Positions 19,315 to 45,251 of a stretch of DNA of 45,251 nt are shown here, one piece after another. The position numbers and the translations under genes were made by a program. How positions within the stretch are numbered: the stretch's first letter is position 1; the number at the start of each line of letters is the position of its first letter. The notes below the pieces were generated by a model, which ran no database searches, was not told the origin of the DNA, and saw only the letters and a program-made list of their open reading frames with translations. The stretch comes from a virus: IMG/VR virus record IMGVR_UViG_3300005830_000058, positions 1 through 45,251 of that record; one strand, 5' to 3'.

Positions 19315-19735
19315 GACCCTCGCCCTCATCAAGCGCCTCACGGAGGATTTCCCGGGCTTCTCGCTGACCCAAGAGCAGGCCGGTGGGTGGGACCAGCGCC
19401 TCGCCGAGTACGACGCGGTCCAGCTCGCCTACGCGGCGGACATGCTCGCGCGCCACCACCGGCACGGGCCCCCGAACCTGCCACACGTCCATTCGGCCAT
19501 CTGCGGAGTCCTGGAGCGCGTCCAGGAGCCCGTCACGGACCTTTGGGGCTGCACGCCCCTGCACGCCAACGGGGCGCCCGTGACCCAGGCAGCGATGCGC
19601 AGGGTCGGCCTGGACGGCGAGCCCCTGCCCGCCGCGATCCTCGAGCGCCTGCCCGCCCACGTGGCCCGGCTGGACGCCGAGGCCGCGCCCGCCGCCTACA
19701 CCGCGATCGCGCCACCCGATGAGCCCCCGTACTGA
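19304..19735 (+). CDS. Hypothetical protein, 143 aa. Possibly a helicase-loader (G39P-like) N-terminal domain.
   Basis: Listed ORF with a GGAGGA SD. It follows the replication protein. The pattern DFPGFSLTQEQAGGWDQRLAEYDAVQLAYAADML...PPNLPHV is reminiscent of that family. Confidence 0.6.
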   Translation: MRTETLALIKRLTEDFPGFSLTQEQAGGWDQRLAEYDAVQLAYAADMLARHHRHGPPNLPHVHSAICGVLERVQEPVTDLWGCTPLHANGAPVTQAAMRRVGLDGEPLPAAILERLPAHVARLDAEAAPAAYTAIAPPDEPPY

Positions 19736-19909
19736 GCGCCCCAGCCAGCGCGCCTCCCGCGCGCCACGCTGCGCGATCGGCCAGCCGGACGAAGAACCGG
19801 ACGGCCAGGAGCGATCGTCGCACACGCGCGCCCCCAGGGGCCTTCACGGGCAAGGGCCCGCTGGCGGCCCGAGGCGAAGCTCAGGGGAAGAAAGTCCGCA
19901 CTAGGCCAC

Positions 19910-19939
19910 TTGCGTCCTACCCGGAGCACCCGGTACGCT
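19910..19939 (+). promoter_or_regulatory. Candidate sigma70-type promoter, TTGCGT-N18-TACGCT.
   Basis: It lies in the 240-nt gap before the ATG at 19976 (SD AAGGAGA at 19964). It closely resembles the element at 28811..28839. Confidence 0.35.
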
Positions 19940-19975
19940 TGAGGCGCACTCGATTCCACCACCAAGGAGATTCCG

Positions 19976-20266
19976 ATGGCCCGAGGACCGAAGCGCAGTC
20001 CCGAGGAGATGGTCGCCCACTACGAGGAGCAGGCCAGGCTGGCGAAGGCCCGGCTCGGCCAGGCCGTAGGCCGCCACGTCTGGAAGGCGATCCAGGCGCT
20101 CAAGGACGCCATCGCGGCGATCCCCGATACCGACGACGACCAGGACGGCATAACCATCGAAGCCGCACAAAGAGAGTTGCGCACGTTGGCCGTCGAGCGG
20201 GACTGGGACCCCCCGAAGTCCAAGGCCCAGCCGAAAGCGGAGGCTTCTGGTGATGGCGGAAGTTGA
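19976..20266 (+). CDS. Hypothetical helical protein, 96 aa.
   Basis: Listed ORF with a strong SD. Confidence 0.65.
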   Translation: MARGPKRSPEEMVAHYEEQARLAKARLGQAVGRHVWKAIQALKDAIAAIPDTDDDQDGITIEAAQRELRTLAVERDWDPPKSKAQPKAEASGDGGS

Positions 20267-20525
20267 CGACCTGCCCGAAGAGGAGCGCAGCGGCACGTTC
20301 GAGGCTGACCGGCTGCTAGCTCGGCTGCACGACCGCAGGCACCGCCTGGGCTGGTCACGCGAGCAGATGCGCGAGGCCGTCAGGACCGCGAACCTCGTGC
20401 TGCTGCTGGAGATCGCCGCGCTCGACGACGAGATCGGCGACAAGCGACCGCCCGCGCCGGGCCCCGAAGGCTGCCCCGCATCTCCTCGGGCGCTGGAATG
20501 GCCTGGCGTGGGCTTTCCATCGTGA
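20250..20525 (+). CDS. Hypothetical protein, 91 aa. Possibly a small HTH.
   Basis: Listed ORF. LGWSREQMREAVRTANLVLLLE weakly resembles an XRE-type helix-turn-helix. Confidence 0.55.
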   Translation: MMAEVDDLPEEERSGTFEADRLLARLHDRRHRLGWSREQMREAVRTANLVLLLEIAALDDEIGDKRPPAPGPEGCPASPRALEWPGVGFPS

Positions 20526-21037
20526 CCGCTCCCGACAGGTGGAGCGGCAAGCTCGACCCGGCCGAGTTCTTCCTCGCCGGGGTCGTCGGCGTCATGCGCC
20601 GCTGCATGAACATTCGCGGCGGCGAGACGGTGCGGCGCCGCTCCGAGATCGGCATGTGGGACAAGGACATCATCGGCGCGATCGGCGAGATGTTCGCCTG
20701 CCAGAAGACGGGGCTTCGCTGGCTCTCCGTTCTCCAGAAGGGCGGGATGGATACGCTGCCGCTCGAGGTGCGCACGACGGACTACCACTATGGCAGCCTG
20801 ATCCTGCATCCCGAGGACCCCGACGACCGCATGTTCGTGTTGGTGACAGCCGACACGGAGTTCTACAGCTACTGCCTGCGCGGCGGGATCCTTGGCGCCG
20901 ACGGGAAGCACAAGCGCTTCTGGAAGGATAAAGCCAATAGCGGGCGACCGGCGTATTACGTTCCGCAGGACGCGCTTATGCCGATGGATGACGTGGCTGC
21001 GCAGTACCTCTCCGACTGGAGTTTCCCTGATGCCTGA
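20498..21037 (+). CDS. Hypothetical protein, 179 aa. Possibly a PD-(D/E)xK-like nuclease fold.
   Basis: Listed ORF. An alternative GTG start at 20522 would form a GTGA overlap with the previous stop. The motifs are GAIGEMFA ... D ... LEVRTT. Confidence 0.6.
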   Translation: MAWRGLSIVTAPDRWSGKLDPAEFFLAGVVGVMRRCMNIRGGETVRRRSEIGMWDKDIIGAIGEMFACQKTGLRWLSVLQKGGMDTLPLEVRTTDYHYGSLILHPEDPDDRMFVLVTADTEFYSYCLRGGILGADGKHKRFWKDKANSGRPAYYVPQDALMPMDDVAAQYLSDWSFPDA

Positions 21038-21536
21038 CCCCGACGACCCCAAGCCCACCCTCCCCGAGACCATCGCCCGGCTGCGGGAGCTGCACGAGAA
21101 TGCGACGCTGGGGCCGTGGAAGCTGCTGGCGAACCAGGGCATCGTCGGCGCTGACGGCGACCCGGTAGCGACCGCTCCGGGCCATCCTGCGGCGGGGTTC
21201 CGTAGGCTTGCCGATGAGAGAATCGCTAACGCCTGTCTGATGACGGAGACCCGCAACGCCCTCCCCGCCCTCCTGGACGCCGCTGAGGAGTGCGAGCGTC
21301 TGCGGGAAGAGCTTGAGTACCACTGCTCCTGCAAGTTCACCGAAGACGATGAGCCCGGTGTAGTGTGCGGATACCACCTGGAGAGGAATGAGCGCACCGC
21401 CCGCTACGAGGCGGCCCTGCGCGCGCGCGTGGAGGCGATGGATAGCGACGACGGCATGTACGGATCGTCCGAGTATTTCGCGGCGAGAGACGCCGCCATC
21501 AACCAGGCCCGCGAAGCGCTGGGGGAGAAGCCGTGA
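21030..21536 (+). CDS. Ead/Ea22-like protein (about 168 aa).
   Basis: The ATG at 21030 lies inside listed ORF 20892..21536. It carries PETIARLRELHENATLGPW and ends AREALGEKP in the junction linker. Confidence 0.65.
   Translation: MPDPDDPKPTLPETIARLRELHENATLGPWKLLANQGIVGADGDPVATAPGHPAAGFRRLADERIANACLMTETRNALPALLDAAEECERLREELEYHCSCKFTEDDEPGVVCGYHLERNERTARYEAALRARVEAMDSDDGMYGSSEYFAARDAAINQAREALGEKP
21516..21536 (+). repeat. Junction linker, copy a: gcgctgggggagaagccgtga.
   Basis: Read directly. It encodes the C-terminal ALGEKP, the SD and a GTGA stop/start overlap. Confidence 0.9.
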
Positions 21537-21751
21537 GCGAACCGATCCAGTGGCAATCGTGGTCGTGGTCCAGGCGCAAACTATGGGGTCTGGTCGTCGC
21601 GAAGTTCACGGAGCCTCCGATCGTCGGGCGCGCGTCGATTACAGTGACGCGAGACGACTTGATCGAGGCGGGCATCTTCGGCGGGTTCGACAGCAGCGGA
21701 AGGCCGTTGCCTCCAACCCAGGAGCAGCTTGCGGAGAGGAAGAAGCCGTGA
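21533..21751 (+). CDS. Hypothetical Trp-rich protein, 72 aa.
   Basis: Listed ORF with GTGA overlaps at both ends. Confidence 0.6.
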   Translation: MSEPIQWQSWSWSRRKLWGLVVAKFTEPPIVGRASITVTRDDLIEAGIFGGFDSSGRPLPPTQEQLAERKKP

Positions 21752-22473
21752 CCCTCCGTTCCGAGATCGAGGACATCCTCCGCGAGCACGTCGCCGCGCA
21801 CACGAGCCTGGAGGCGACGGTAAACGCGGTGATGCGCGTACCTGCGCTGGCACTGGCGCGCGTCGAGGGCTGGCGTGACGGCGTGCGCGAATACGCGACG
21901 TGGCGCGACGGCGAGCAGCTCGTCGGCTGCATGGAGACGCCGCTGGGCAAGGTGCTGGAACGCGGGCCATGCGGTGCCGTGCCAGAGTCGCAACGCGCGT
22001 TCGCCGCCCTCTCCCTCCTGGAGACCCCGATGCCTGACGAGATCCGGAGCGAGTTCCCGTGGGACGAAGAAGACGCCCATGTCCGGTCATGCGCGGGCTG
22101 CGCGAACGAAGGCCACCCCTACGTGCGGTCAACGTGCCGGGCGTGCCGGGGGATCGTGCTGGCGTCCCGCGCTGATCGCAACGAACACGGCAGCCGAGTG
22201 GCCCCGAGCGGCGACGCCGGGGGACAGGGCGCTGGAGGAAAGGTCAATACGCCCAGCGATCCGATCACTTACCACTCGGCTGCCGCCTCCCCCGAGCCCA
22301 GCGAGCACGCGCGGCGGTCCGTCTCACCGACGCCTGGGGATGTGGGGATGCTGGCGGAACATGCAGTCAACGCCGCAGTTCGTGCCGCCGTCCGCGAGTT
22401 CGCGGAGCGGGTCTGCCAGCACCTAGACGAAGAGGACGCCCGCATCGTGAGAGGGGAGGCCGACCGTGCCTGA
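21748..22473 (+). CDS. Hypothetical protein (about 241 aa); the fused-form paralog of 24211..24462 plus 24455..24898. It contains a CxxC...CxxC unit.
   Basis: The GTG at 21748 is in frame within listed ORF 21388..22473. The sequence runs VTLRSEIEDILREHVAAHTSLEAT...LSLLETPMPDEIRSEF...AVREFAERVCQHLDEEDARIVRGEADRA. Confidence 0.7.
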   Translation: MTLRSEIEDILREHVAAHTSLEATVNAVMRVPALALARVEGWRDGVREYATWRDGEQLVGCMETPLGKVLERGPCGAVPESQRAFAALSLLETPMPDEIRSEFPWDEEDAHVRSCAGCANEGHPYVRSTCRACRGIVLASRADRNEHGSRVAPSGDAGGQGAGGKVNTPSDPITYHSAAASPEPSEHARRSVSPTPGDVGMLAEHAVNAAVRAAVREFAERVCQHLDEEDARIVRGEADRA

Positions 22474-22522
22474 CCCCCGCCTGGAGAAGATCGCGCGGGA
22501 TGCGGCGGGGGAGAAGTCGTGA
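22466..22522 (+). pseudogene. 18-codon remnant (VPDPRLEKIARDAAGEKS) of the DPRLEKI gene family, truncated onto a junction linker.
   Basis: The 22-nt block gacccccgcctggagaagatcg (22472..22493) is identical to 24985..25006 at the start of the full-length gene. The frame then runs straight into gcggcgggggagaagtcgtga. Confidence 0.45.
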
Positions 22523-22761
22523 GCGTCAGGAAGATCCCCGAGCGCACGGTCGTCACCTGCGACCGCTGCGGGGTTGAGTGCAGCAACGGACTCGGTCCTG
22601 GTCGCCGCAGGATGAACGGACGGCTGATCGTCAAGGCTCACTCGCTCGATATGGTTGGCGACCCAGTCGCTGACGGGTCCTTCGAGCGCGACTTCTGCGA
22701 TGCGTGCATGTCTCTTGTTCTCGATGCGTTGCGCGAGGCGCTGAGGGACTCCGATGAGTGA
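22519..22761 (+). CDS. Small zinc-ribbon-like protein, 80 aa.
   Basis: Listed ORF with a GTG start in a linker. It carries CDRCGVEC ... FCDAC. Confidence 0.6.
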   Translation: MSVRKIPERTVVTCDRCGVECSNGLGPGRRRMNGRLIVKAHSLDMVGDPVADGSFERDFCDACMSLVLDALREALRDSDE

Positions 22762-23119
22762 CAAGGCCGCATGGAAGACTTCCCGCAAGGACATGGACTC
22801 CTTCCTGGCGTTCGTTCCAAGCGAACTGGAGGAAGGGTTCGTCGTGTACGCCTACCCGCCCGGTGACTCGGGTGAGCGGGTGGCGTTCTACGGGCCGGAT
22901 GCGCGCGAACGCGCGGACGATTACGCTGCGCTGCAAAACGATCGCATCCGTGACCGGGCAGCCCTGCGCGCGTGCGTGGAGGCGCTGGAGCACGCTCGGT
23001 GGCTGGCGACAGACGACTCAGTGGGAGCGGTGCTGTTTGTGGTCGGCGGCCCGCCGTTCCGCGACACCGCTGCCGCCGCCCTCGCCCTCGCCCGCGCCGC
23101 GCTGGGGGAGAAGTCATGA
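22754..23119 (+). CDS. Hypothetical protein, 121 aa.
   Basis: Listed ORF. It ends ARAALGEKS in a linker copy. Confidence 0.6.
   Translation: MSDKAAWKTSRKDMDSFLAFVPSELEEGFVVYAYPPGDSGERVAFYGPDARERADDYAALQNDRIRDRAALRACVEALEHARWLATDDSVGAVLFVVGGPPFRDTAAAALALARAALGEKS
23099..23119 (+). repeat. Junction linker, copy c: gcgctgggggagaagtcatga.
   Basis: Read directly. Confidence 0.9.
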
Positions 23120-23712
23120 GCAGTGAGACCATCGCCCGGCTGCGGGATCGCGTGTCAGTGGCCGAGGGCAGCGGCGTGTATGGGATGACAATCCGAATCC
23201 CGGCGACCGACGGGCGCGCGCTGCTCAACATCACTGCGGAGTGCGAGCTGCTGCGGGCTATCCACGACCGCATGGTGTTGGACGTGCGAGACATCGCGCA
23301 AGCCGCCGGTTTCTTCGGGGAGTGCGAACCGGCAGCGATCATCAAGCGCGTGGGTGACCAGCGGCAAGAGTGCGAGCGGCTGCGGGCCGAGAACTACCAC
23401 GACCTGCTCGACCAGATGGAGGAGCGGTGGGGGCCGATGAACGGCGGTGGGCCGTGCGACACGATCGGGCGCGTCGAGGTGCAGGCGTTCCTGGAATCGC
23501 GCGCCACGCACCGCCCGACGACTCGGCTGCGGGAGCGCCTCGCCAAGGCCGAGTCCGCCCTGCGCGCGTGCGCCGACGTGGTGCTCTCGGTAGTGCAGTC
23601 GCACAAGGGGAGCGTGGGCAGCATCGACAACATCTACAAGGCGCAGATCGGGCGTGAACACGCCGACGCCGCCATCACCACCGCGCGCGAAGCGCTGGGG
23701 GAGGAATCCTAA
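23116..23712 (+). CDS. Coiled-coil protein (about 198 aa), a divergent paralog of 21030..21536.
   Basis: The ATG at 23116 lies within listed ORF 22972..23712. It shares an identical 23-nt block, gagaccatcgcccggctgcggga (23125..23147 = 21066..21088), and the ECERLR string. It ends AREALGEES. Confidence 0.65.
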   Translation: MSSETIARLRDRVSVAEGSGVYGMTIRIPATDGRALLNITAECELLRAIHDRMVLDVRDIAQAAGFFGECEPAAIIKRVGDQRQECERLRAENYHDLLDQMEERWGPMNGGGPCDTIGRVEVQAFLESRATHRPTTRLRERLAKAESALRACADVVLSVVQSHKGSVGSIDNIYKAQIGREHADAAITTAREALGEES

Positions 23713-23966
23713 TGGTGCAGACGAAGGTGCTTCTGACAGTGGAGCGAGTGACCGACGACTCGACCGGGATCTGGTGCATCGACGAGCTGGAGTACGGAGT
23801 GCCCATCGTGACGCGCGACTGGCTAGACGCGAGAGACGGCCGACGCGAAGCGCTGGCGAGGTGGTTACGGATGCTGGCCGACGCATGCGAGGCACGGAGA
23901 GCCCCGTTCGGTGATGGGCTGAAAGGGCAAGTGCTGACGGACGAGGCGCTGGGGGAGAAGCCGTGA
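23712..23966 (+). CDS. Hypothetical protein, 84 aa.
   Basis: Listed ORF with a TAATG overlap. It ends EALGEKP in a linker copy. Confidence 0.6.
   Translation: MVQTKVLLTVERVTDDSTGIWCIDELEYGVPIVTRDWLDARDGRREALARWLRMLADACEARRAPFGDGLKGQVLTDEALGEKP
23946..23966 (+). repeat. Junction linker, copy e: gcgctgggggagaagccgtga (identical to copy a).
   Basis: Read directly. Confidence 0.9.
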
Positions 23967-24214
23967 CCCTTCCCGAAGAAATCGAGTGGAACATGGAGAG
24001 CGCTATCCTCGCACCTAACAACTGGTCGCCTGGTCTTGCTGCGGAGTGGGCGCGCAAGTATTGGGGGATCGCGGAGAGTGACCCCGTGCAAGTGTCAGAG
24101 CCGATGCGGTTCCGCAAGCGTCCCTCCCACGGCGGCGAATACGACATCTGGATCGACGAGGTTCCCGAAGGCGCGAACACGCGCGGGTCCTTCCTGGCGA
24201 GGCTCGTCCAATGA
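23963..24214 (+). CDS. Hypothetical protein, 83 aa.
   Basis: Listed ORF with a GTGA overlap. Confidence 0.6.
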   Translation: MTLPEEIEWNMESAILAPNNWSPGLAAEWARKYWGIAESDPVQVSEPMRFRKRPSHGGEYDIWIDEVPEGANTRGSFLARLVQ

Positions 24215-24462
24215 CCCTCCGCTCCGAGATCGAGGCCGTCCTCGCCGAGCACGTCGCCGCGCACACGATGTCCCTTGAGGCGACGCTGGACGCGGTGCTG
24301 CGGTGTGAGGCGATCGAGAGGGTGCGGGAGGCGTTGCGGGAGATCGCGGACCGCAAGGGGCCGTTCAGCCTCGACCCGGATGAGCACGCCAGGAACTGCG
24401 TAGAGCATATGGGGAGTTACGCCGAAACCGCCCTCTCCCTCCTGGAGACCCCCGATGCCTGA
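24211..24462 (+). CDS. N-terminal half of the split paralog (83 aa).
   Basis: MTLRSEIEAVLAEHVAAHTMSLEAT...LSLLETPDA stop. It is homologous to the first part of 21748..22473. Confidence 0.6.
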   Translation: MTLRSEIEAVLAEHVAAHTMSLEATLDAVLRCEAIERVREALREIADRKGPFSLDPDEHARNCVEHMGSYAETALSLLETPDA

Positions 24463-24898
24463 CGAGATCCGGAGCGAGCCCGACATCGCGAAGTCCAACG
24501 CGGAGCAGTCCGAACGGCTGCGCTGGATGACGCGCTGCGAAGAGCTGGGCCTGCCACTTGGCGACTGGCGGCGACTGCGAGACGAACACGGCAGCCGAGT
24601 GCCCCCGAGCGGCGACGCCGGGGTGAGCCATCCAGGTGGCGTCTTTCAGCACTCGGCTGCCACCTCCCCCGAGCCCAGCGATCACGCGCGGCGGGCGGCC
24701 GAAGGCCCCGCAATGGACATCTACGTCGCAGTCCTTCGTCAGGGCCACGGAGGCATCTCCAATGCCCAGCACATCGCCATCACGAACACGATCGCGGACG
24801 CCATCGACGCCGCCGTCCGCGAGTTCGCGGAGCGCGTCTGCCGAAACCTAGACGAAGAGGACGCCCGCATCGTGAGAGAGGAGGCCGAGCGTGCCTAG
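24455..24898 (+). CDS. C-terminal half of the split paralog (147 aa).
   Basis: MPDEIRSEP...AVREFAERVCRNLDEEDARIVREEAERA. The ATG overlaps the preceding stop by 8 nt. Confidence 0.6.
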   Translation: MPDEIRSEPDIAKSNAEQSERLRWMTRCEELGLPLGDWRRLRDEHGSRVPPSGDAGVSHPGGVFQHSAATSPEPSDHARRAAEGPAMDIYVAVLRQGHGGISNAQHIAITNTIADAIDAAVREFAERVCRNLDEEDARIVREEAERA

Positions 24899-24986
24899 GT
24901 TCAACTGCTGTAGCCGTCCGATCCTCGATTGGGACGGATTCATCTGGCGTTGCATCAATTGTGGATGGAGGGGCACCCGTGCATGA
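24891..24986 (+). CDS. Mini zinc-ribbon ORF, 31 aa (VPRFNCCSRPILDWDGFIWRCINCGWRGTRA). Not in the ORF track.
   Basis: My manual translation from the GTG at 24891, which overlaps the previous stop. The segment is absent from the paralogous junction at 22466..22472. Confidence 0.35.
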   Translation: MPRFNCCSRPILDWDGFIWRCINCGWRGTRA

Positions 24987-25425
24987 CCCCCGCCTGGAGA
25001 AGATCGTCAGGGAGTGCGCGGAGAATGTCCGCTGCCACCTATTCGCGGACTCGCGCGAGCGGCCAGAGGATACGTCGGATGCGATCATCCTCCGCGCCCT
25101 GGAGGCCGCGCGGGCGGAGGACGCGCAGACGATCGAGCGGCTACAGCAAACGCACTGGCATCGAGAGGCGCAGGCCAATGCGGAGGATGCCAGGGTTTAT
25201 GCAGCTCGCGCCGAGAAGGCCGAGGCCCTGGAGGCCGCGACCCTCAAGGATCTTGACTCGGCCAAGATCCGCGCCGAGAAGGCCGAGGCCCGCCTCGCCG
25301 CGCTCCGCGCCATCGTGGACGACCAGGCCGAGTCCCTGGCCCTCTGGTTCCTCCAGCCGACCGCAAGCGAGGCGCTCCTCCAGAGCGAGCTTAGGCGGCT
25401 GCACGCCGCGATCGAGGAGGAGTGA
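24961..25425 (+). CDS. Coiled-coil protein of the DPRLEKI family (148-154 aa).
   Basis: Listed ORF. The likely start is the GTG at 24979 (VHDPRLEKIVRECAENV), preceded by GGAGGGG. It has a long Ala/Glu-rich helical region. Confidence 0.65.
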   Translation: MDGGAPVHDPRLEKIVRECAENVRCHLFADSRERPEDTSDAIILRALEAARAEDAQTIERLQQTHWHREAQANAEDARVYAARAEKAEALEAATLKDLDSAKIRAEKAEARLAALRAIVDDQAESLALWFLQPTASEALLQSELRRLHAAIEEE

Positions 25426-29645: not shown

Positions 29646-30016
29646 ACCCCACAGCTAAGCGCCCGTGGCATGTTGTGATAACGGAGACCCTCGCCGGAAT
29701 AGAGCAACCCGTGAGTAGCACATACACCAAACCCAAGGCTGACCTTGTCGATGCCGACTGGGTCCGCCGGCAGATCGGCGAGCGCGAGCACTGCCGCTCG
29801 ATCTTCTCCGTCGAGGACTACTACGACGAGGACAACCTCCTCGCCGGCGAGTGGCTCGTCTTGTGGATCGGCGACTCCTGCACCACCAGCCTGCGCGGCG
29901 AGTGGCTCATCTCGCGCGATGACGCCGACGCCTGGTTCGAGCGTGGCGAGCGCGGCCTTGCCTCGCTGGTGGACGCCTGCCGCCGCACACCGAACGAGAT
30001 TGAGGACCCGCAATGA
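29642..30016 (+). CDS. Hypothetical protein, about 124 aa.
   Basis: The GTG at 29642 (GTGA overlap) lies within listed ORF 29468..30016. The upstream part is Arg-rich and looks artefactual. Confidence 0.6.
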   Translation: MNPTAKRPWHVVITETLAGIEQPVSSTYTKPKADLVDADWVRRQIGEREHCRSIFSVEDYYDEDNLLAGEWLVLWIGDSCTTSLRGEWLISRDDADAWFERGERGLASLVDACRRTPNEIEDPQ

Positions 30017-30333
30017 ACACCGACATCACCCTTCACGGCATCGAGAGCGGCGACGAGTTCTTCGGCCCGCCGAGAGTCGCCCGCCTTCCGAACGGCCGAC
30101 TCGCCATCGCACTCAAGCTGCGCACTCGGGTCGCCAGCACGGAGATCGGCGTCGTCGTCACCGGCGAGGCTGCCGCGCTGTCCGTTGCACGGCATCTGGA
30201 GGAACTGGCGCAGGCGCTGCGCGCCGCGTGCGCCGAAGCATTCGCGCGCGGTTTCTTTGGCGAGTCTCCGCGCCAGGGCGGGGCGGCGGGACTACACGCC
30301 GCCTCGCCCGCTCCTCCCGTCGAGCGGCGCTGA
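30013..30333 (+). CDS. Hypothetical protein, 106 aa.
   Basis: Listed ORF with an ATGA overlap. Confidence 0.6.
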   Translation: MNTDITLHGIESGDEFFGPPRVARLPNGRLAIALKLRTRVASTEIGVVVTGEAAALSVARHLEELAQALRAACAEAFARGFFGESPRQGGAAGLHAASPAPPVERR

Positions 30334-31283
30334 TGCGCCACGAGTTCGCGACCCGCGAGGAGTGGCTCGCCGCACGCGGCCTCGGGGCGAGCGACATCGC
30401 CGCCGCGCTGGGGCTCAGCCCGTACCAGTCGGCCTACGAGCTCTGGGCCATCCGCTCGAAGCTCTTGCCCGAGCCCGACCTGTCCGATCGCTGGACCGTG
30501 CAGGCCGGCATCGCGCTCGAGCCCGTCGTGGAGCGCTGGTACGCCGAGGAGAACGCCGAGCTGTACGAGTGCGACTTCTCCTCGGGCCGTCACGTCCTCT
30601 ACACCCACGACGAGTATCCCTGGCTGACCGCGTCGCCCGACTCCATGCTCGTGAACCGCGAGACGGGCGAGGAGGGCGTGCTTCAGCTCAAGACCACGTC
30701 CATCTGGAACGCGGACGCCTGGGTGGGCGGAGCGCCCCTGATTCACCAGGTCCAGGTGCAGGGCGAGATGGCCTGCACGGGGCTCTCGTTCGCCGTGCTG
30801 GCATGCATGCTGGGCGACCTGCAACCGCTCTACGCCGCGCACCTCTCGGGCGTGCCGATCGAGACGCTGCTCGACATGGCGCGGAGCGAGCACCTCCAGT
30901 GCGAGCTGCGCTACTACGTCGTGCCGCGCAATGAGCGCTTCATCGAGTGGATGCTCGCCGGGCTGCGCACCTTCCTCGACCACGTCGAGAGCGGCAACCC
31001 GCCCGCGCCTGACGGGTCGGACTCGTCCTACAAGACGATGGTCCGCCTGCTCGACGACACGCGCGAGAAGCCGGCCGAGCTGAACGCCACCGCCGATCTG
31101 CTCTGCGAGCAGTACGAGGAACTTCTTGCCGAGGAGCGCTCGATCGCCATCCGCAAGAAGGCCGTGCGCAATTCGCTCGTCCACATGCTCGACAAGAGCC
31201 CGAAGGGCACCACGCCCGCCGGCCGTCGGGTATCGTGTGGTAGCAAGTTCACGATATCGCCACCTAGAAAGGACTCGCCATGA
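30333..31283 (+). CDS. YqaJ/lambda-exonuclease-like recombination exonuclease, about 316 aa.
   Basis: The ATG at 30333 lies within listed ORF 29745..31283. It carries GLGASDIAAALGLSPYQSAYELW ... GIALEP ... ASPDSML ... LQLKTT, and it is paired with a downstream SSAP. Confidence 0.75.
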   Translation: MRHEFATREEWLAARGLGASDIAAALGLSPYQSAYELWAIRSKLLPEPDLSDRWTVQAGIALEPVVERWYAEENAELYECDFSSGRHVLYTHDEYPWLTASPDSMLVNRETGEEGVLQLKTTSIWNADAWVGGAPLIHQVQVQGEMACTGLSFAVLACMLGDLQPLYAAHLSGVPIETLLDMARSEHLQCELRYYVVPRNERFIEWMLAGLRTFLDHVESGNPPAPDGSDSSYKTMVRLLDDTREKPAELNATADLLCEQYEELLAEERSIAIRKKAVRNSLVHMLDKSPKGTTPAGRRVSCGSKFTISPPRKDSP

Positions 31284-32185
31284 GTGAAGAACGACGGATC
31301 GTAGAAGTCGGTCGTCGCGGGGTAACGCTCGCGAACTGGGACGACGTGAAGGGCTTCGCCCGCGCGATCGTCGCGGCGGACATGGTCCCCTACGCGCTAC
31401 TCGACAAGAGCGGCGACACCGAGCGTTCGATCACCCGCGTCGCGATCGTCATCGAGTCCGGGCTCGAGATGGGCCTTGCGCCGATGACGTCCATGCGCGG
31501 GTTCGCGGTCATCAACAACATGCCCGCCATCTACGGCGCGGTCGGCCTTGGGGTCTGCCAGAGCACCGGGCGTCTCGAGTCCGTCCGCGAGTGGTACGAA
31601 GTCGAGGGGCAGGCGGTCGCCCAGCCCAGCGACGACCCGACGTGTACGGCCTTCTGCGAAGTAAAGGCGCGGGACTGGACGGAGCCGTACGTCGGCAAGT
31701 TCTCCGTCGCTCAGGCCGTGGCCGCTGGCTTCTGGAAGAAGACCGACCGGAGTGGGAAGCCCTCCCTCTGGGTGACGCGCCGGTACGAGATGTTGATGTG
31801 GAAAGCGCGCTGGCGCGGCTACCGCGTGCCGTTCGCGCACGAGCTGAACGGGGTGCCCTTCTACGAGGAGGCGATCGACTACGAGCCGCAGGAGCCCCGT
31901 GACGCCGAGTTCACCACGAAGGCGCCGAAGACCCTGGACGAACTGGTGGACGGCGCCACGGCCCCTGAGAGCGCGCCTGACGCGACCGAGGTGGAGCAGC
32001 CCCCCGACGACGAGTTCCCCAAGGACGCGCCCGTTGGGACCGTCTGGGAGGCGCCTGGCGGGCAGCCGTGGGTGCTGCTTCCGACCGGGAAGTGGGAGAT
32101 GATCCCGAGCGAGGGAGAGATGACCAGCGACATCGTTGAGCGCATCAAGAGCGAGCGCAAGCTGTCTGGTGACCTGCCGTGGTAG
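31280..32185 (+). CDS. Single-strand annealing protein (RecT/Red-beta-like), 301 aa.
   Basis: Listed ORF. It lies immediately downstream of, and overlaps, the exonuclease gene. The core reads GLEMGLAPMTSMRGFAVINNMPAIYG, followed by an acidic C-terminal tail. Confidence 0.6.
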   Translation: MSEERRIVEVGRRGVTLANWDDVKGFARAIVAADMVPYALLDKSGDTERSITRVAIVIESGLEMGLAPMTSMRGFAVINNMPAIYGAVGLGVCQSTGRLESVREWYEVEGQAVAQPSDDPTCTAFCEVKARDWTEPYVGKFSVAQAVAAGFWKKTDRSGKPSLWVTRRYEMLMWKARWRGYRVPFAHELNGVPFYEEAIDYEPQEPRDAEFTTKAPKTLDELVDGATAPESAPDATEVEQPPDDEFPKDAPVGTVWEAPGGQPWVLLPTGKWEMIPSEGEMTSDIVERIKSERKLSGDLPW

Positions 32186-34332: not shown

Positions 34333-34707
34333 CTACTTCTTGGACTCGATGTAGAACACGACCACGTCCCACGCCATCGTTCCAAAGACGGCCAGAACGC
34401 CGAAGATGACCCAGCGCACCAGGCGCTTCCACTCGGCGGCGAAGTCCTCCACGCGCCGCAGTCGCTCGAGCGCCCCGGGGGAGCCGTTGCCGACCAGGAT
34501 CTTGCGGAGCATGTCGCGCTCCTCGCGGGCGACGCCCAAGCCAGCCTGCATTGACGACTGAACCGCGGCGCTGGCCTTCTGCATGTCGAGCAGATCTCTC
34601 TGGAGCTCCTGGTGCTGCGAGTCGTTTCGGAGCACATGCTCCTCCTGCCGCGCGCGCACGTCTGAGACTGCCGCCATGAGTTGCTCGATCGTTGCGGGTT
34701 CGCTCAT
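34333..34707 (-). CDS. Tail-anchored membrane protein, 124 aa. Holin or spanin-partner candidate.
   Basis: Listed ORF. The N-terminus is coiled-coil-like and the C-terminal TM helix is VRWVIFGVLAVFGTMAWDVVVFYI. The ATGA overlap at 34704..34707 couples it to the giant gene's stop. Confidence 0.6.
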   Translation of the reverse strand: MSEPATIEQLMAAVSDVRARQEEHVLRNDSQHQELQRDLLDMQKASAAVQSSMQAGLGVAREERDMLRKILVGNGSPGALERLRRVEDFAAEWKRLVRWVIFGVLAVFGTMAWDVVVFYIESKK

Positions 34708-37700
34708 CGGGTCGCATCCCAGGCGGCCTTGCTGAACTCGTTGTAGAGGCGCAAGAGGCGCTCCTCGTCGTTGCGGTCGCGGAGATCCTTCTCGGCGCTC
34801 AGGTAGAGCTTGAGCCGGCCACGGAACGCCCAGAGCGGGTGCTCCCGAACCTCGGCCGCCGTCTCGCGGTCGCCCGCCTCACGGTAGCGTTTCTCCTGGG
34901 ACTCCAGGGCCTTGATCTGGTCCCGCCAGCCCCGGAACGCCTGCCCGGCCAGGTAGGGGGGCTGCTCGCCCACCAGGCGGCGCAGGAGGGGCACGTCCGC
35001 GACGCGGATATCCTCGCCCGCGAGCAGCTTGGCGGGCAGATTCGCGGTCCTCAGCGTCGTCGCGCCGAGCCCCCCCGAGTACGTCTTCGCCAGGTGCTCG
35101 ATCACCTCGGGCGACCAGTCGAAGGGGAACCCGGCGCTGACTTCCGTCGGGTCCTTGAAGGTCTCGTTCAGCCAGGCCGTGACCGCGCGCGTCTGCGGGT
35201 TCACGTTGGGCCAATACTTGTCCGCCTCGGCCTTCATGGAGCCGGGGAAGTCCGCCGGCTTGATCGGGCGGCCCGCCCAGTCCTCGTTGGTCGCCACCTC
35301 GACGAGCGGATCCGTGATGGTGGGAGAGATGGTTCGCAGCGCGCCCTTTGCGCTCAGCATCTCGCCTCCGCCGCCGACCGGGTTCGTGCTGTCGAGCACC
35401 GACTCCATGACGTTCGCGAAGCCCTCGCCCGTCGAGCGCCGCCCGAGGCCGAAGACCGAGCGGAGCTGCCGGCTCATCTCCTGGCCCGCCGTGTGGAAGA
35501 TGTTGTAGACGAACGGCGCGGGAATCTTCGCCTTCCACCCACCGGGGAGCATGAAGATGATGTTTGAGCGCTTCTCGTAGTCGGGGACCTTGTCCCAGAA
35601 GTTCTGCCCGTCGTCGTCGTCGCCCGCCATCAGGTAGTTGAGCATGTCCAGCGCCATGCTGAACGCGACGAGGCCGGCGACCATGCGCACGACCGGTCGG
35701 TGCCCCTTGCTGTTCTTGCTCGCAAGCGCCTCCACCGTGCGCCGCGTGCCCTGGATCGAGGCGTTCGAGAACATGAAGAAGGAGTTGAGCGCGTTGCCCG
35801 CCTCGCCCTTGTCCTCGAAGTTCGTCGTCAGGCGCTTCGCCTCGAGCGCGGCGCGCAAGCGCGGCATGCCGAGATCCTTGCGCGCCTTGACGTAGAACGA
35901 GAGCCGGGCCGCGTTCTCCACCGAGTCGCTCCACGCGCCGAAGGTGTCGCCAAGGCGCTTGAGCCACGCGCCCATCTGGTTCGGAGCGGAGATCGAACGC
36001 ACTTCCTTCTCCAGGCGCTTCATCTGCGTCTGAAGGTCGTTCACGTCGAAGGGCGAGATCGCAGCCCCGTCCGCGAAGTAGTCGGCGGTGTACTGCTCGA
36101 GCTCGTTCCTCGGCACGAACTCCTCGCCCGCGCGCTGCGCCGCATAGAAGCGGTTGAGCGCGCCGAGGGCCTTGGGGGCGCCCTTGAGAACGCCACGCGC
36201 GAACTCAGCCCCGTGCTCGGACGAGTTGAAGTACGCCGTTCCCGCGTCCCGCATCGCGTTGAACACCGGGAAGACCGGGTTCCACCTGGTCGCGAGCGCC
36301 GCCATGACGCGCGTGTAGTTGCCGATCGCCTGCACCCAGGCCGCGATGTCCTGCGCGCCGAGGTTTGAGAGCGTCCTGCCCAGGCGCTTGTGGTCGCCCA
36401 CGAAGCGGATCCAGTGCTGCTCGCCGTCGATGCGCACCCCGAGCCACTCGCCGTCCGTGTTGGTGCGGCGCGGGTCACCCTCGGTGACGACTTCCTCCTG
36501 GCCGTCCTTCTTCTTGATGACGCGCCGGTAGACGGCGGGGTCGATCTCGATCGCGCCCTTCAGCTCGTCGGCGTACTGCTCGACCATCCCGTAGAACTGC
36601 TGCTGCACGCGGTTCTTCTCGCCCCGGTACACCGCTCGGTCGAGCTGCGTCAGGATGCGGGGGATCACAAGGTCAGCGAGCTTGCCCTGCTGCTCCTCGC
36701 TGATGTCGCCCCAGCCCATCGCGCGCTTGCTCTCGCTGCCACGGATGTCGATGCCGCGACCGATCCCAAGCGCCGCGATCAGGTTCCCGCTGTCGTCGAT
36801 CTCGGCGTCGATCAGGGGCGCATAGAACTCGTACGCGCCGCGCCACTTGTCGATCACGTCGGGGGACTCGAGGCCGTACCCGACGATCAGGTTGCGCGCC
36901 TCCTCGACCGCCGCGTCCGTCGCGCGCGCCACGTTCGCGTAGAGCTCGGCGTGTTCGCTCGCCTCGACGCGGGCCAGCAGGTCGTCGGCCCAGGAGTCGC
37001 GGAAGCCCGACCCCGGGTTGTTCTCGAGCCCCATCTCCGGGTTGATCCTGGCGATCTGCGCGTTGCGCTCGGGGACGTGCCGCGCGATCAGGTAGCTGCC
37101 AAGGTCGCGCAGCTCGAGGCCGGCTGAACCCGCAGCCCGGACGGCCTTCTCGACCGCGAGGTGGTACTTGCGCTTGATCTCCTGGAGCTTGTTCCCGGTC
37201 TTGCTCGCGCGGAGCTTCTCCAGCAGCAGCACGCTCGAGTCGTCCGAAGCCCCGAGCGCGCTCTCGACGTGCGCCAGGTCGCCGAGCCGGTCGACCCAAA
37301 GCCGCATCTGCGTGGCGGCCATGCTCTTGTCTAGGTCGATCGGGCGCTTCTCGATCACCTGCCCCGTCGCCTGGGCCGCAGGCGTCGCGGCGAAGCGCGG
37401 CTGGCCTGCCTCCATCACGGAGGAGCGCAGCTCGTCGGTGATCGGTAGGGCGTGGGCGGGTGACGCTTCGCCACGCGCGAGAACGTCACGCATGATCCGC
37501 TCGCGCTGTTCGGGAGTGAAGCGGGCCAGGTCAGCGGGTATGTCCGCCGCAGCCTCAGCATACGCGCTGTCGGTCCATATAGTCGCCCCCGTCACCCTCG
37601 CCCCGTGCTTCTTCCCTATCTTGTTGGCGGCGTTGACGAGGATCTTGTCGTAGAAGTCCTCCATCCCCTTGCCGCCGATGGTGAGGTTCGGGCCTGAGAC

Positions 37701-44415: not shown

Positions 44416-45251
44416 GGACCCGCTCCATCGAGCCGAGCTCGCCGTTGATCCACATCCGCTCGAGCGACCACTGCTCGGACGCGAGGGCCGAGCGCAGCTT
44501 CACCCAGCAGAACGCGCCGCGCATGCGCTCGTAGATCGTGGGGTTGCGCCCCGCGCGCAGGGTGCCCTCGTACACGGGCAGGCCAGGGTCGTCCGCCACG
44601 TCGCTCTGGAAGAGCTGCACCTCCACCTCGCCCTGGAACGAACTCTCGTCGCCCGTTCCGAGGACGGCCGTGAACTCGTTCCACACGGCCTCCCAGCCGG
44701 GCTCGGGTGACTGGAGCGGGCCGATCATTACCTGGCTGTCGATCGCCTGCCCGTCGTCGTTCACCGCCTCGCGGTCCCAGACGCGCACGTACCCGTCGTT
44801 GCCGCCGATCAGGAGCCGGCGGTCATCGGGGTCGTCACCGTCTATGAGGAGCGACGCCGTCGGCTGGCGGGAGTACGTGCCTTCGTTCGCGCCGAAGATG
44901 TCTTCCCACCAGGAGTCGCTTTTCTGCTCCCAGAAGTAGTGCGTCGCACGCGCCGAGGACTCGCCCCTCGGGACGAGGAATATGTGTAGCCCTTCATCCT
45001 GATAGTTCCAGTTCAGCTCCACCCGGTACGTCGTCAGGTCAACCCCTTGCAGCCGACGCTCGATCCGGTGGAGCGAGATGCGATCGAACTGGCCGCTGTA
45101 GGGATTCATGCGGTAGAGCCCGCCGCGCGACCCGAAGAAGTAGAGCACTCCCTCTGGGTCTCGCGTCCAGGCGCGTCCGAACGCGATGCCGGTTTCGACG
45201 CTCACGTTGTCGAACTCGCCGCCCGCCATCGGGTCCCCGGTCAGGCGCCAG
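44408..45251 (-). CDS. 3' part of the same ~1403-aa nozzle-position protein. The track shows it as a 273-aa ORF starting at an internal Met.
   Basis: The reading frame stays open upstream of Met 45229 to the window edge and continues into 120..3488 after removing the overlap. The stop is TAA at 44410..44408. Repeated motifs resemble a beta-propeller (GGLYRMNP, LLIGGNDGYVRVWD). Confidence 0.85.
   Translation of the reverse strand, partial: WRLTGDPMAGGEFDNVSVETGIAFGRAWTRDPEGVLYFFGSRGGLYRMNPYSGQFDRISLHRIERRLQGVDLTTYRVELNWNYQDEGLHIFLVPRGESSARATHYFWEQKSDSWWEDIFGANEGTYSRQPTASLLIDGDDPDDRRLLIGGNDGYVRVWDREAVNDDGQAIDSQVMIGPLQSPEPGWEAVWNEFTAVLGTGDESSFQGEVEVQLFQSDVADDPGLPVYEGTLRAGRNPTIYERMRGAFCWVKLRSALASEQWSLERMWINGELGSMERVRE
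45132..45251. repeat. Terminal overlap, copy 2 (identical to 1..120).
   Basis: Same comparison as for 1..120. Confidence 0.95.

What the first reader, a model, noticed from the sequence alone, without database searches (positions are those of the whole stretch)
21516..23966. Reused ~21-nt junction linker between unrelated early genes
- The string GCGCTGGGGGAGAAG(C/T)C(G/A)TGA occurs at 21516, 23099 and 23946. Close variants occur at 22502 (gcggcgggggagaagtcgtga), 23692 (gcgctgggggaggaatcctaatg) and 21731 (gcggagaggaagaagccgtga).
- Each copy simultaneously encodes a C-terminal -ALGEK(P/S) tail, the SD for the next gene and a GTGA/ATGA stop-start overlap.
- The upstream genes are otherwise dissimilar, so the conserved part extends beyond what an SD needs.
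- The 18-codon remnant at 22466..22522 is a gene start fused directly onto a linker. That is what linker-to-linker recombination would leave behind.
- This looks like a built-in cassette-shuffling mechanism for the accessory gene array.
Basis: partly seen in the sequence, partly recalled or inferred. Interest (0 to 1): 0.65.

Follow-up and report, generated by a model that had tools for sequence, protein, structure and literature searches.

The report
Reused stop-start junction in phage genes
A 21-base string recurs at four to six gene junctions of a phage early operon because it is the shared 3' end of tandemly duplicated, mosaic genes that also carries the next gene's ribosome-binding site and start codon; this is real but largely ordinary phage genome architecture.

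Summary
The repeat is real. GCGCTGGGGGAGAAGYCRTGA is exact at 21516, 23099 and 23946, has 2 mismatches at 22502, and has looser variants at 21731 and 23692. All copies lie on the + strand, within 2.5 kb, at gene junctions (chance expectation 0.01). Each encodes an -ALGEK(P/S) tail, a GGGGAG Shine-Dalgarno and an RTGA stop/start overlap. These junctions are far more alike (12-17 of 17 upstream bases) than the genome's other overlap junctions (1-10 of 17).

The claim that the upstream genes are otherwise dissimilar fails for three of them. A, F and G share a ~60-residue C-terminal module, and A and G also share head and middle blocks. Only H, the 18-codon D and B carry the tail alone.

The whole array is a patchwork of 20-90-nt near-identical blocks, many of them inside genes. 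Five unrelated phage contigs show the same design, with tandem paralogues whose shared tails encode the next gene's ribosome site.

D is a gene head joined to a family tail. That is not what linker-to-linker recombination would leave.

No diverged relative exists in the collections, so breakpoint tests were impossible. Four assemblies of the same phage show one gene order. A dedicated shuffling linker remains possible but unshown.

The parts
21516..21536 (+). Junction copy 1 (A/B): GCGCTGGGGGAGAAGCCGTGA. It encodes the tail ..AREALGEKP*, with GTG of B overlapping the TGA of A.
21731..21751 (+). Degenerate copy (B/C): GCGGAGAGGAAGAAGCCGTGA, tail ..AERKKP*. It shares 13 of 17 upstream bases with copy 1.
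   Evidence: (E 0.052)
22502..22522 (+). Copy (D/E): GCGGCGGGGGAGAAGTCGTGA, tail ..IARDAAGEKS*.
   Evidence: (2 mismatches)
23099..23119 (+). Copy (F/G): GCGCTGGGGGAGAAGTCATGA, tail ..ARAALGEKS*, with an ATGA overlap.
23692..23714 (+). Variant (G/H): GCGCTGGGGGAGGAATCCTAATG, tail ..AREALGEES*, with a TAATG overlap.
   Evidence: (E 0.23)
23946..23966 (+). Copy (H/I): identical 21-mer to copy 1, tail ..DEALGEKP*. H shares only these last 7 residues (25 nt at 96%) with A.
21030..21536 (+). Gene A (168 aa). N-terminal ETIARLRELHENATLGPW domain (a large phage family, remotely Ead/Ea22-like), an ECERLR motif, and the C-terminal module ALRARVEAM...AAINQAREALGEKP.
22754..23119 (+). Gene F (121 aa). 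It carries the same C-terminal module (ALRACVEAL...ALARAALGEKS).
23116..23712 (+). Gene G (198 aa), a paralogue of A. Five colinear short blocks are shared, including 23 nt at 100% (ETIARLR) and the C-terminal module.
23712..23966 (+). Gene H (84 aa). Its body is not detectably related to A, F or G; only the tail is shared.
22466..22522 (+). Mini-ORF D (18 codons). The head VPDPRLEK matches the start of L. The tail IARDAAGEKS matches the family C-terminus. The two are joined at ATCG.
21748..22473 (+). Gene C, a mosaic paralogue of J+K. Blocks of 42-91 nt at 85-98% identity are separated by unalignable DNA.
24211..25425 (+). Genes J (24211-24462), K (24455-24898) and L (probable start 24979, end 25425). 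This is the second copy of the C-D segment.
21533..21751 (+). Gene B (72 aa), downstream of copy 1 and carrying the degenerate tail.
22519..22761 (+). Gene E (80 aa). Its tail ..LREALRDSDE* (GCGCTGAGGGAC..ATGAGTGA) is a weak relative of the linker.
23963..24214 (+). Gene I (83 aa). Its head MTLPEEIE resembles the heads of C and J (MTLRSEIE).
   Evidence: (D5)
29715..32185 (+). Phage recombination module. A YqaJ-type exonuclease domain lies in ORF 29715-31283. ORF 31280-32185 has a weak RecT match.
   Evidence: YqaJ E 2.5e-17; RecT E 1.1e-3, below cut-off

Best explanation
The window is a complete, circularly closed 45.1-kb phage genome of 67% GC. Positions 18-33 kb form one rightward early operon of small, tightly packed genes.

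The 21-mer is the 3'-terminal block of a tandemly amplified, mosaic gene family, of which A, F and G are clear members. It has two parts:
1. (A)RE/A-A-L is the end of the family's last predicted helix and is conserved at the protein level.
2. GGG-GAG-AAG-YCR-TGA is the translation-initiation region of the next gene. It holds the GGGGAG Shine-Dalgarno, a 5-nt spacer and a GTG/ATG start overlapping the stop, so ribosomes finishing one gene restart on the next.

Three overlapping constraints therefore act on the same bases. Occasional short-patch recombination between the paralogues would add to this. Together they keep the block nearly identical while the gene bodies diverge or are replaced.

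Genes that carry only the tail (H, D, perhaps B) are best read as body replacements or internal deletions. These survived because they kept the downstream gene's initiation region. D is such a scar: the head of an L-like gene fused in frame to a family tail.

Shown: the anatomy, the paralogy, the excess conservation, and the same design in other phages.
Inferred: translational coupling, gene conversion, and the selective-retention scenario.
For: The junction's three roles can be read directly from the sequence.

The array looks like one transcription unit. There is no + strand terminator-like site between 17 kb and 28.1 kb, so none within the 21-26 kb array, and no promoter-like site.

Paralogy:
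- A, F and G share a C-terminal module.
- A and G share colinear blocks.
- C versus J+K is a patchwork of near-identical blocks.

Family-wide tail:
- A's N-terminal domain has 94 remote homologue clusters.
- 13 of 94 have [RK][AEST]AL in the last 22 residues, against 14 of 525 other 22-residue windows (Fisher p 3e-5).
- G+E content rises to 27% in the last 8 residues, against 15% elsewhere.

Protein-level selection on A-L: synonymous variants occur in other phages, namely GCC CTG, GCT CTC and GCG CTC.

The same architecture occurs in unrelated phage contigs:
- L050 has three tandem MTDLIQRLR...AREAL paralogues.
- L072 has three ..IKGETT* tails on LLAEVDRLT paralogues.
- L080 has shared heads and the tails C.WKAVM and PFP.PPEWLK.
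- L065 and L022 show it too.

The core works as an initiation region: all 15 IMG/VR matches to CTGGGGGAGANGYCRTGA are in-frame ..LGExx* stop/start overlaps.

The length of the tail-only homology varies (25 nt in H, about 30 in D, about 20 in the L022 copy). That fits random breakpoints filtered by selection.

The AF2 model (low confidence, pLDDT 58.6) places AREAL at the end of the last helix and the final five residues (LGEKP) in coil.
Against: Paralogy plus protein constraint does not explain everything.
- All five A-L codon pairs in the window are GCG CTG. Each of those codons is used 41% of the time, so the probability is roughly 1e-3.
- H shares 25 nt at 96% with A yet nothing else.
- In L022 one copy (GGCTGGGGGAGACGCC before GTG at 5008) lies after the upstream gene's stop, so it is conserved without coding for a tail.

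These points need nucleotide-level selection or recent short-tract exchange. I infer such exchange but cannot demonstrate it.

Translational coupling itself is untested.

The weak similarity of L050, L065 and L022 proteins to A, F and G (best E 0.002 in a tiny database) leaves their homology unproven.
Confidence: 0.68

Rival explanations
1. Dedicated recombination linker. The 21-mer exists because it provides homology for the phage's own YqaJ/RecT-type recombinase, or for the host's. Accessory genes can then be deleted, duplicated or swapped as cassettes, within the genome and between co-infecting phages.
For: - Three exact 21-nt direct repeats, plus variants, lie at gene boundaries.
- Conservation is greater than at other junctions.
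- Synonymous sites are identical.
- H, D and the L022 non-coding copy carry the linker only.
- 26-33-nt near-identical junctions occur in otherwise dissimilar contigs L050 and L065.
- The genome encodes a YqaJ exonuclease and a RecT-like protein.
- There is precedent for short boundary sequences and for relaxed recombination by phage recombinases (PMC3029335, PMC2327257, PMC3945230).
Against: - Half of the copies are ends of paralogous coding modules whose homology runs 48-170 nt upstream.
- Equally good shared blocks lie inside genes.
- D is not a linker-to-linker product.
- The left edge of the C/J duplication has the linker on one side only (I/J has none).
- Four assemblies from three samples show a single arrangement, and no structural variants were found in L022/L040 or L079-L081.
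- 21 nt is short for efficient Red/RecT-type exchange (general knowledge).
Confidence: 0.17
2. An extended start-associated signal, like the SAS of Cluster K mycobacteriophages. The whole ~17 nt upstream of the start would be selected at the RNA (or DNA) level. It would act as a special initiation or regulatory site, recognised by a phage or host factor, that sets the expression of a subset of early genes, independently of common ancestry.
For: - It lies only in the non-structural early region, in one orientation, immediately upstream of starts, and is conserved beyond the bases that can pair with 16S rRNA. These are the same four properties described for SAS (PMC3203893).
- The non-coding copy in L022.
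- 15 of 15 viral occurrences of the core are at starts.
- The identical 21-mer is kept at one chromosomal junction across many Solirubrobacterales MAGs.
Against: - There are only 4-6 copies, confined to 2.5 kb and tied to one paralogue family. The other early genes of the operon use ordinary, unrelated SD regions.
- There is no shared RNA fold (z-scores -0.47 to +1.24; one at -2.69).
- No candidate factor was identified.
Confidence: 0.1
3. A C-terminal peptide motif. On this view -ALGEK(P/S) is a functional short linear motif (a tag, degron or docking site) that several early proteins need, and the DNA identity follows from that.
For: - An AR(E/A)AL-type C-terminus recurs in remote family members.
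- A-L is kept with synonymous changes in L065 and L050.
Against: - The G-E-K-P part varies freely in relatives (GEES, KGEKHD, GEDA, K*) and tracks the presence of a coupled downstream start.
- A copy exists in non-coding DNA.
- Identical synonymous sites within the window are not explained.
Confidence: 0.04
4. An assembly artefact: chimeric joins at a shared k-mer.
For: The exact repeat length (21) equals a common k-mer size. Public contigs of this phage break at repeats.
Against: Six independent contigs from three other samples run straight through all six junctions with 0-1 mismatches. L061 spans the K-L repeat block.
Confidence: 0.01

Closest known systems
Translational coupling through overlapping stop/start codons, with the SD inside the 3' end of the upstream gene (classical operon biology)
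   Same: There is an RTGA overlap. GGGGAG lies 5 nt upstream of the start, inside the upstream ORF. The genes are tightly packed and co-directional.
   Different: The same 17-21 nt is reused at several junctions instead of each junction having its own sequence. The other 10 overlap junctions of this genome are all different.
Short conserved boundary sequences proposed to mediate homologous recombination between phage modules, including mycobacteriophage Island3 gp67/gp68, which share their C-terminal 18 residues and about 50 bp (PMC3029335 and its references 21 and 22)
   Same: Adjacent or nearby genes with different bodies share a C-terminal stretch at the DNA level. Recombination between such stretches would insert or delete a gene while preserving neighbours.
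   Different: No pair of related genomes is available here to show an actual indel bounded by the repeats. Most copies belong to recognisable paralogues. Copy number is higher (4-6).
Start-associated sequences (SAS) of Cluster K mycobacteriophages (PMC3203893)
   Same: It is a repeated asymmetric motif containing an SD core. It sits a few bases upstream of starts of non-structural genes, in one orientation, and is conserved beyond rRNA pairing. Sometimes it overlaps the upstream stop.
   Different: - The sequence differs (SAS is GGGATAGGAGCCC).
- SAS has 11-19 copies spread over half a genome and is mostly associated with ATG starts.
- Here there are 4-6 copies in 2.5 kb, mostly with GTG starts, tied to a paralogue family.
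- There is no ESAS-like inverted repeat.
PeSL promoter/stem-loop cassettes that mediate modular shuffling of ORFans in T4-type phages (PMC2839356, PMC4122927)
   Same: A repeated regulatory motif flanks small accessory early genes in a plastic region.
   Different: PeSLs are intergenic, about 50-70 nt, and consist of a sigma-70 promoter plus a terminator hairpin. Here there is no promoter, no hairpin and no intergenic space. PeSL-mediated exchange was shown experimentally; nothing has been shown here.
Ead/Ea22-like phage early proteins (Pfam PF13935) and the wider 'ATPGPW' family
   Same: A and its 94 homologue clusters have the ..RLRELxxxATPGPW.. head and the ..ALLDxxExLR.. motif. They occur as tandem mosaic paralogues in phage early regions.
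   Different: A itself does not reach any Pfam, NCBIfam or PHROG threshold. Only one homologue gives a sub-threshold PF13935 hit.

Membership tests
Translationally coupled overlap junction | The stop of the upstream gene overlaps the start of the downstream gene. | tested here: met
   GTGA or ATGA at five copies and TAATG at the sixth.
Translationally coupled overlap junction | An SD-like sequence lies 4-10 nt upstream of the start, inside the upstream ORF. | tested here: met
   GGGGAG (GGAGAGG at B/C, GGGGGAGG at G/H) lies 5-7 nt before the start.
Translationally coupled overlap junction | Both flanking ORFs are genuinely coding and co-transcribed. | tested here: met
   GC3 is 0.76-0.89 against GC2 of 0.45-0.55 for every ORF. 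There is no + strand terminator-like site before 28.1 kb, so none within the 21-26 kb array.
Translationally coupled overlap junction | Downstream translation depends on upstream translation. | not testable with these tools
   This needs reporter fusions or ribosome profiling.
Conserved boundary (linker) sequences for modular recombination | A short identical sequence at boundaries of genes that are otherwise unrelated. | tested here: inconclusive
   True for H, D and B. False for A, F and G, which share about 60 aa.
Conserved boundary (linker) sequences for modular recombination | Gene presence/absence breakpoints in related genomes coincide with the sequence. | not testable with these tools
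   No diverged relative was found. Identical copies of the phage show one gene order.
Conserved boundary (linker) sequences for modular recombination | The same sequence is found in different phages, flanked by different genes. | tested here: met
   L050 and L065 match A's last 33 nt at 29 of 33 positions. L022 carries the exact 21-mer. There is no BLAST similarity elsewhere. These loci were found by searching for the motif; only the bases outside the search pattern count as evidence.
SAS (Cluster K mycobacteriophages) | The 13-bp consensus GGGATAGGAGCCC. | tested here: not met
   The motif here is GCGCTGGGGGAGAAGYC. The SAS consensus is taken from PMC3203893.
SAS (Cluster K mycobacteriophages) | An asymmetric repeat 3-7 nt upstream of starts of non-structural genes, in one orientation, conserved beyond 16S pairing. 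| tested here: met
SAS (Cluster K mycobacteriophages) | 11-19 copies spread over the non-structural half of the genome, upstream of many different gene families. | tested here: not met
   There are six sites within 21.5-24.0 kb only.
PeSL cassettes (T4-type phages) | A strong sigma-70-like early promoter plus a terminator stem-loop in an intergenic cassette. | tested here: not met
   No promoter-like site was found, and the only + strand terminator-like site lies at 28158, outside the array. There is no common fold. The genes overlap, so there is no intergenic space.
Ead/Ea22-like (PF13935), for proteins A and G | A score at or above the Pfam gathering threshold. | tested here: not met
   A and G give no hit at E<=0.1. 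Homologue P0058 scores 19.9 bits against a cut-off of 27.

The most novel reading that the evidence does not exclude
The ~21-33-nt junction (GCCCGCGAA)GCGCTGGGGGAGAAGYCRTGA could be a portable recombination site built into a translation-initiation region. It would be a translational-coupling counterpart of the T4 PeSL cassettes. Phage RecT/YqaJ-type recombinases would use it to delete, duplicate and exchange small early genes, within a genome and between unrelated high-GC phages, always leaving the downstream gene expressible.

Points the ordinary reading does not fully explain:
- near-identical junctions in otherwise dissimilar contigs (window, L050, L065, L022)
- the non-coding copy in L022
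- the tail-only copy on H
- identical synonymous sites, including the conserved minor codon GAA
Probability: 0.15. Interest if true: 0.6.

Novelty: new member of a known kind. Interest (0 to 1): 0.3.

Why it matters
As it stands, this is a clean example of how early accessory regions of high-GC phages are built. They consist of tandem mosaic paralogues whose C-terminal tails are also the ribosome-binding sites of the next gene. This has two practical consequences:
- Short, nearly identical strings at gene junctions should not be read as mobile elements or regulatory repeats without checking for paralogy.
- Annotation pipelines can use such tails to call starts and micro-ORFs such as D.

If the junctions were shown to be preferred crossover points, the old 'linker' version of the modular theory of phage evolution would gain a concrete, testable instance outside the lambdoid and T4 groups.

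Tried and rejected
- Chi-like hotspot. GCTGGGGG resembles E. coli Chi, but it occurs on the + strand only inside the linkers, with 3 scattered sites on the - strand. Rejected.
- Structured RNA element. The six 101-nt contexts share no fold, with z-scores -0.47, -0.26, +0.70, +0.65, -2.69 and +1.24. Rfam finds nothing in the window. Rejected.
- Internal promoter or terminator cassette. None in the array.
- Assembly artefact. Rejected using six independent contigs.
- Named protein families. Pfam, PHROGs and NCBIfam on A-L gave nothing significant.
- A profile of the 60-aa C-terminal module searched against 5.8 billion proteins. No hit; the module is too short.
- Relatives of the phage:
  - blastn against INPHARED phages: none.
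  - IMG/VR with g6, G and TerL: none.
  - IMG/VR with the DUF1376 protein: 8 loci sharing only that domain, with no array and no linker.
  - Homologue searches with g6 and A: only the phage itself plus 1-2 distant proteins.
- Exact-motif scans:
  - IMG/VR: 0 hits.
  - GTDB genomes: 17 single-copy hits, 10 of them one orthologous Solirubrobacterales junction.
  - Metagenomes: 38 single-copy hits.
  - No contig anywhere carries more than one exact copy.
- Structural variants between near-identical contigs (L022/L040, L079-L081, L059/L060). None, only SNPs.
- AF2 model of A. Too low in confidence (pLDDT 58.6) for a fold search.

Full report
WHAT THE WINDOW IS

The first 120 nt equal the last 120 nt, so the contig is a circularly closed genome of about 45.1 kb and 67% GC. 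It encodes:
- a large terminase, an SU10-adaptor-like protein and a DUF1376 primosomal protein
- an Xis/HTH-like protein
- a 2377-aa polyvalent protein with LPD38 and LPD14 domains
- a YqaJ-type exonuclease domain (E 2.5e-17), followed by an ORF with a weak RecT match (E 1.1e-3, below cut-off)

It contains no tRNA genes and no Rfam family. Genes between 18 and 33 kb all run rightwards. No promoter-like site was found in 17-34 kb. The only + strand terminator-like site is at 28158, downstream of the 21-26 kb array. The finding therefore sits inside a polycistronic early region of small ORFs with no significant family assignment.

CHECKING THE OBSERVATION

GCGCTGGGGGAGAAGYCRTGA is exact at 21516, 23099 and 23946 and has two mismatches at 22502. 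Shuffles give 0.01 matches. Nothing else in the 45 kb, on either strand, scores better than E 3.4.

All six sites lie at junctions of ORFs whose GC3/GC2 contrast marks them as coding. Five have GTGA or ATGA overlaps and the sixth has TAATG. GGGGAG sits 5 nt before the start.

I compared the 17 nt upstream of all 15 RTGA overlap junctions in the genome. The five linker junctions share 12-17 positions with one another. Every other pair shares 1-10.

It is not an assembly artefact. Contigs L056, L077, L078, L059, L060 and L061, from three other samples, cover 19732-25399 with 0-1 mismatches and the same gene order. L061 spans the K-L repeat block.

The genes upstream of the copies are not all dissimilar.
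- A, F and G share a C-terminal module of about 60 residues (..ALRAC/RVEAL/M.. then ..AAIxxAREALGEK). Identities are 41% over 59 aa (E 3e-5), 35% over 63 aa (E 2e-5) and 37% over 65 aa (E 3e-3).
- DNA homology runs at least 48 nt upstream of the stop, at 81% and 75% (family D2).
- A and G are paralogues along their whole length. They share a 23-nt exact block encoding ETIARLR, two ECERLR blocks, the ALRA block and the tail.
- H shares only its last 7 residues, or 25 nt at 96%.
- D and B likewise carry only a tail.

THE ARRAY IS A MOSAIC

The linker is only one of its shared blocks. C (21748-22473) plus D corresponds to J+K plus the start of L. The alignment is a patchwork of five blocks of 42-91 nt at 85-98% identity, separated by unalignable DNA. 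Several blocks are internal to genes. Others span junctions:
- RTGACCCTCCG.. forms the heads of C, J and I.
- RTGCCTGAC.. occurs at g6/A, J/K and C/D.

Near-identity at synonymous sites inside the blocks, next to unrelated sequence between them, cannot come from uniform divergence. It implies segment replacement and/or short-tract exchange among paralogues.

THE 18-CODON ORF D

- Its first 28-30 nt match the start of L at 96.7%.
- Its last 33 nt (ATC GCG CGG GAT GCG GCG GGG GAG AAG TCG TGA, encoding IARDAAGEKS*) match the family tails of A, F and G at 24-25 of 33 positions.
- The two parts meet at ATCG.

D is therefore an in-frame head-to-tail fusion between an L-like gene and a family member. 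It is a deletion or replacement scar that keeps C's stop, E's SD and E's start. Linker-to-linker recombination would not produce it, because that would remove whole genes and leave no remnant.

THE SAME DESIGN ELSEWHERE

A's N-terminal domain (..ETIARLRELHExATxGPW....ALPALLDAAEExxxLR..) has 94 homologue clusters among 1.84 billion representatives, matched over residues ~10-100 only.
- One homologue gives a sub-threshold Pfam Ead_Ea22 hit. A itself reaches no threshold.
- 13 of 94 have [RK][AEST]AL within the last 22 residues, against 14 of 525 other 22-residue windows (odds ratio 5.9, p 3e-5).
- The last 8 residues are enriched in G+E (27% against 15%).

An 'AR.AL helix plus G/E-rich tail' is thus a recurrent C-terminus of the family.

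Phage contigs reached through motif or homologue searches show the same architecture:
- L050 has three tandem MTDLIQRLR...ELERLTRERDE...IAREAL paralogues. Their tails read GEKP*, KGEKHD* (a 1-nt shorter spacer moves the stop) and K* (no paralogue follows).
- L072 has three LLAEVDRLT paralogues ending in ..IKGETT*. Their junction 17-mers are 15-17 of 17 identical. They are followed by ..ARMLGETS* and ..AAIMGEE*.
- L080, which carries A's best homologue P0006, has paralogues that share a 44-nt exact head and the tails C(E/Q)WKAVM and PFP.PPEWLK*.
- L065 has MTDPRSNE.. heads and the tails ARVALGEDA* and AREALGEKP*.
- L022 has a YqaJ gene and a preceding ORF that I read as RecT-like from its position and length only (no family search was run on it). 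A small-gene array follows, with junctions GCGCTGGGGGAGAAGCCGTGAGC, ACGCTGGGGGAGACGCCGTGAAC, GGCTGGGGGAGACGCCGTGAGC and GGAGGAGACGCCATGAAC.

None of these contigs has BLAST-detectable protein similarity to the window outside the tails.

THE CORE IS AN INITIATION CASSETTE

All 15 IMG/VR matches to CTGGGGGAGANGYCRTGA are in-frame ..LGE(K/T/M)(P/S)* gene ends with an overlapping start. They occur in contigs of 42-73% GC. My rough estimate is that this is no more than the number of matches expected by chance. If so, the string survives essentially only where it functions as a start.

The exact 21-mer is also fixed at one orthologous chromosomal junction of Solirubrobacterales MAGs.

The peptide G-E-x-(P/S/T/A)* is what results from placing GGGGAG five bases before an RTGA overlap.

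WHAT ORDINARY PARALOGY DOES NOT FULLY EXPLAIN

1. All five A-L codon pairs in the window are GCG CTG. Each codon is used 41% of the time, so the probability is about 1e-3. Relatives use GCC CTG, GCT CTC or GCG CTC.
2. H has a tail-only copy.
3. The third L022 copy lies after the stop of the upstream gene (4989), so it is conserved as non-coding DNA.
4. A, L050 and L065 share GCCCGCGAAGC(G/C)CTGGGGGAGAAGCC. This includes the minor Glu codon GAA, which accounts for 16% of Glu codons in this genome.

These points call for nucleotide-level selection on the initiation region and/or recent short-tract exchange. The phage's own exonuclease and RecT-like pair makes exchange plausible. Phage recombinases are reported to recombine diverged sequences (PMC2327257, PMC3945230).

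MOST LIKELY MECHANISM

The junction is the terminal block of a tandemly amplified mosaic gene family. The block is held nearly constant because it is at once the end of a helix, the SD and spacer, and the stop/start overlap for translational coupling. Bodies upstream diverge or are replaced, and only variants that keep the downstream initiation region survive. That leaves tail-only copies (H) and scars (D).

Short-patch recombination among the blocks probably homogenises them and generates duplications and deletions. The linker is one substrate among several, not a dedicated device. I put this at about 0.68.

Rival readings:
- a dedicated shuffling linker: 0.17
- an SAS-like special signal: 0.10
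- a peptide motif: 0.04
- an artefact: 0.01

COMPARISON WITH WHAT IS KNOWN

- Overlapping stop/start coupling is textbook.
- Short conserved boundary sequences as recombination sites are a long-standing proposal. A directly comparable case is Island3 gp67/gp68, which share their C-terminal 18 residues and about 50 bp (PMC3029335).
- Cluster K SAS are the closest repeated start-associated motif (PMC3203893). The sequence, copy number and distribution differ.
- T4-type PeSLs are the closest demonstrated shuffling cassettes (PMC2839356). They are promoter-terminator units, which are absent here.

I therefore file the finding as a new member of a known kind.

LIMITS

- Translational coupling and recombination are inferred, not shown.
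- The contigs with similar junctions were found by searching for the motif. Only sequence outside the search pattern counts as independent evidence.

Noticed in passing
window 1-120 and 45132-45251: The first and last 120 nt are identical. The contig is therefore a circularly closed (or terminally redundant) complete genome of about 45,131 bp.
   Followed up: partly
window 22020-22035 vs 24443-24459: Gene C is a fusion of J-like and K-like ORFs. The only difference at the joint is a C-run of 4 versus 5 (GAGACCCCGATGCC versus GAGACCCCCGATGCC). That decides between one fused ORF and two ORFs with an ATGCCTGA overlap. It could be a slippage-prone switch.
   Followed up: partly
window 21030, 22030, 22466, 24455: A second reused junction, RTGCCTGAC (..DA* / MPD..), lies at g6/A, J/K and C/D. 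It also lies in frame inside C.
   Followed up: partly
window 24899-24978: K and L are separated by about 80 nt of non-coding DNA, whereas the homologous C/D junction overlaps by 8 nt. K ends in TAG where C has TGA (GTGCCTAG versus GTGCCTGA).
   Followed up: no
window 21510-21518, 23686-23694; L050 330-338 and its two other paralogue tails; L065 (- strand) upstream of 2981: The minor Glu codon GAA (16% usage) is kept in CGC GAA GCG in A, G, all three L050 paralogues and L065. CGCGAAGCG contains GCGAAGC, which I recall from memory as a very stable GAA mini-hairpin. This is unexplained.
   Followed up: no
window 34704-41837 (-): A 2377-aa ORF carries LPD38 (E 2e-34) and LPD14 'large polyvalent protein' domains. 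This is unusual cargo for a 45-kb phage.
   Followed up: no
window 29715-32185: The YqaJ exonuclease domain occupies only residues 216-357 of a 522-aa ORF. The next ORF is a weak RecT match.
   Followed up: no
window 25207-25228 and 25270-25291: A 22-nt exact direct repeat lies inside gene L (RAEKAEA.. coiled-coil repeat).
   Followed up: no
L022 4990-5011 (ERZ1292632 Hainich groundwater contig): A linker-like copy, GGCTGGGGGAGACGCCGTGA, lies entirely after the stop (4987-4989) of the upstream gene. It is conserved as non-coding DNA ahead of the next start.
   Followed up: partly
L003, L005-L007, L009, L011, L012, L014, L016, L017 and about 13 metagenome loci: The identical 21-mer is fixed at one orthologous chromosomal junction (..ESRKRRALGEKP* / VSASAEERREKLVEL..) across many Solirubrobacterales MAGs.
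   Followed up: partly
L062-L076 (IMG/VR): All 15 occurrences of CTGGGGGAGANGYCRTGA in 2.9 million viral contigs are in-frame ..LGExx* stop/start overlaps, and none is inside a gene. The string seems to be tolerated only where it works as a start.
   Followed up: partly
L080 4375-6322; L072 415-1955; L050 4-885: Other phage early regions hold tandem mosaic paralogues of the ATPGPW / ALLxExxRL family. They have exact shared heads (44 nt at 100% in L080) and shared tails, and unrelated middles.
   Followed up: partly
window 22927: The only difference between the window and contig L060 (JGI 3300021859) over 2251 nt is T>A at 22927, inside gene F. The phage is nearly clonal across samples.
   Followed up: no
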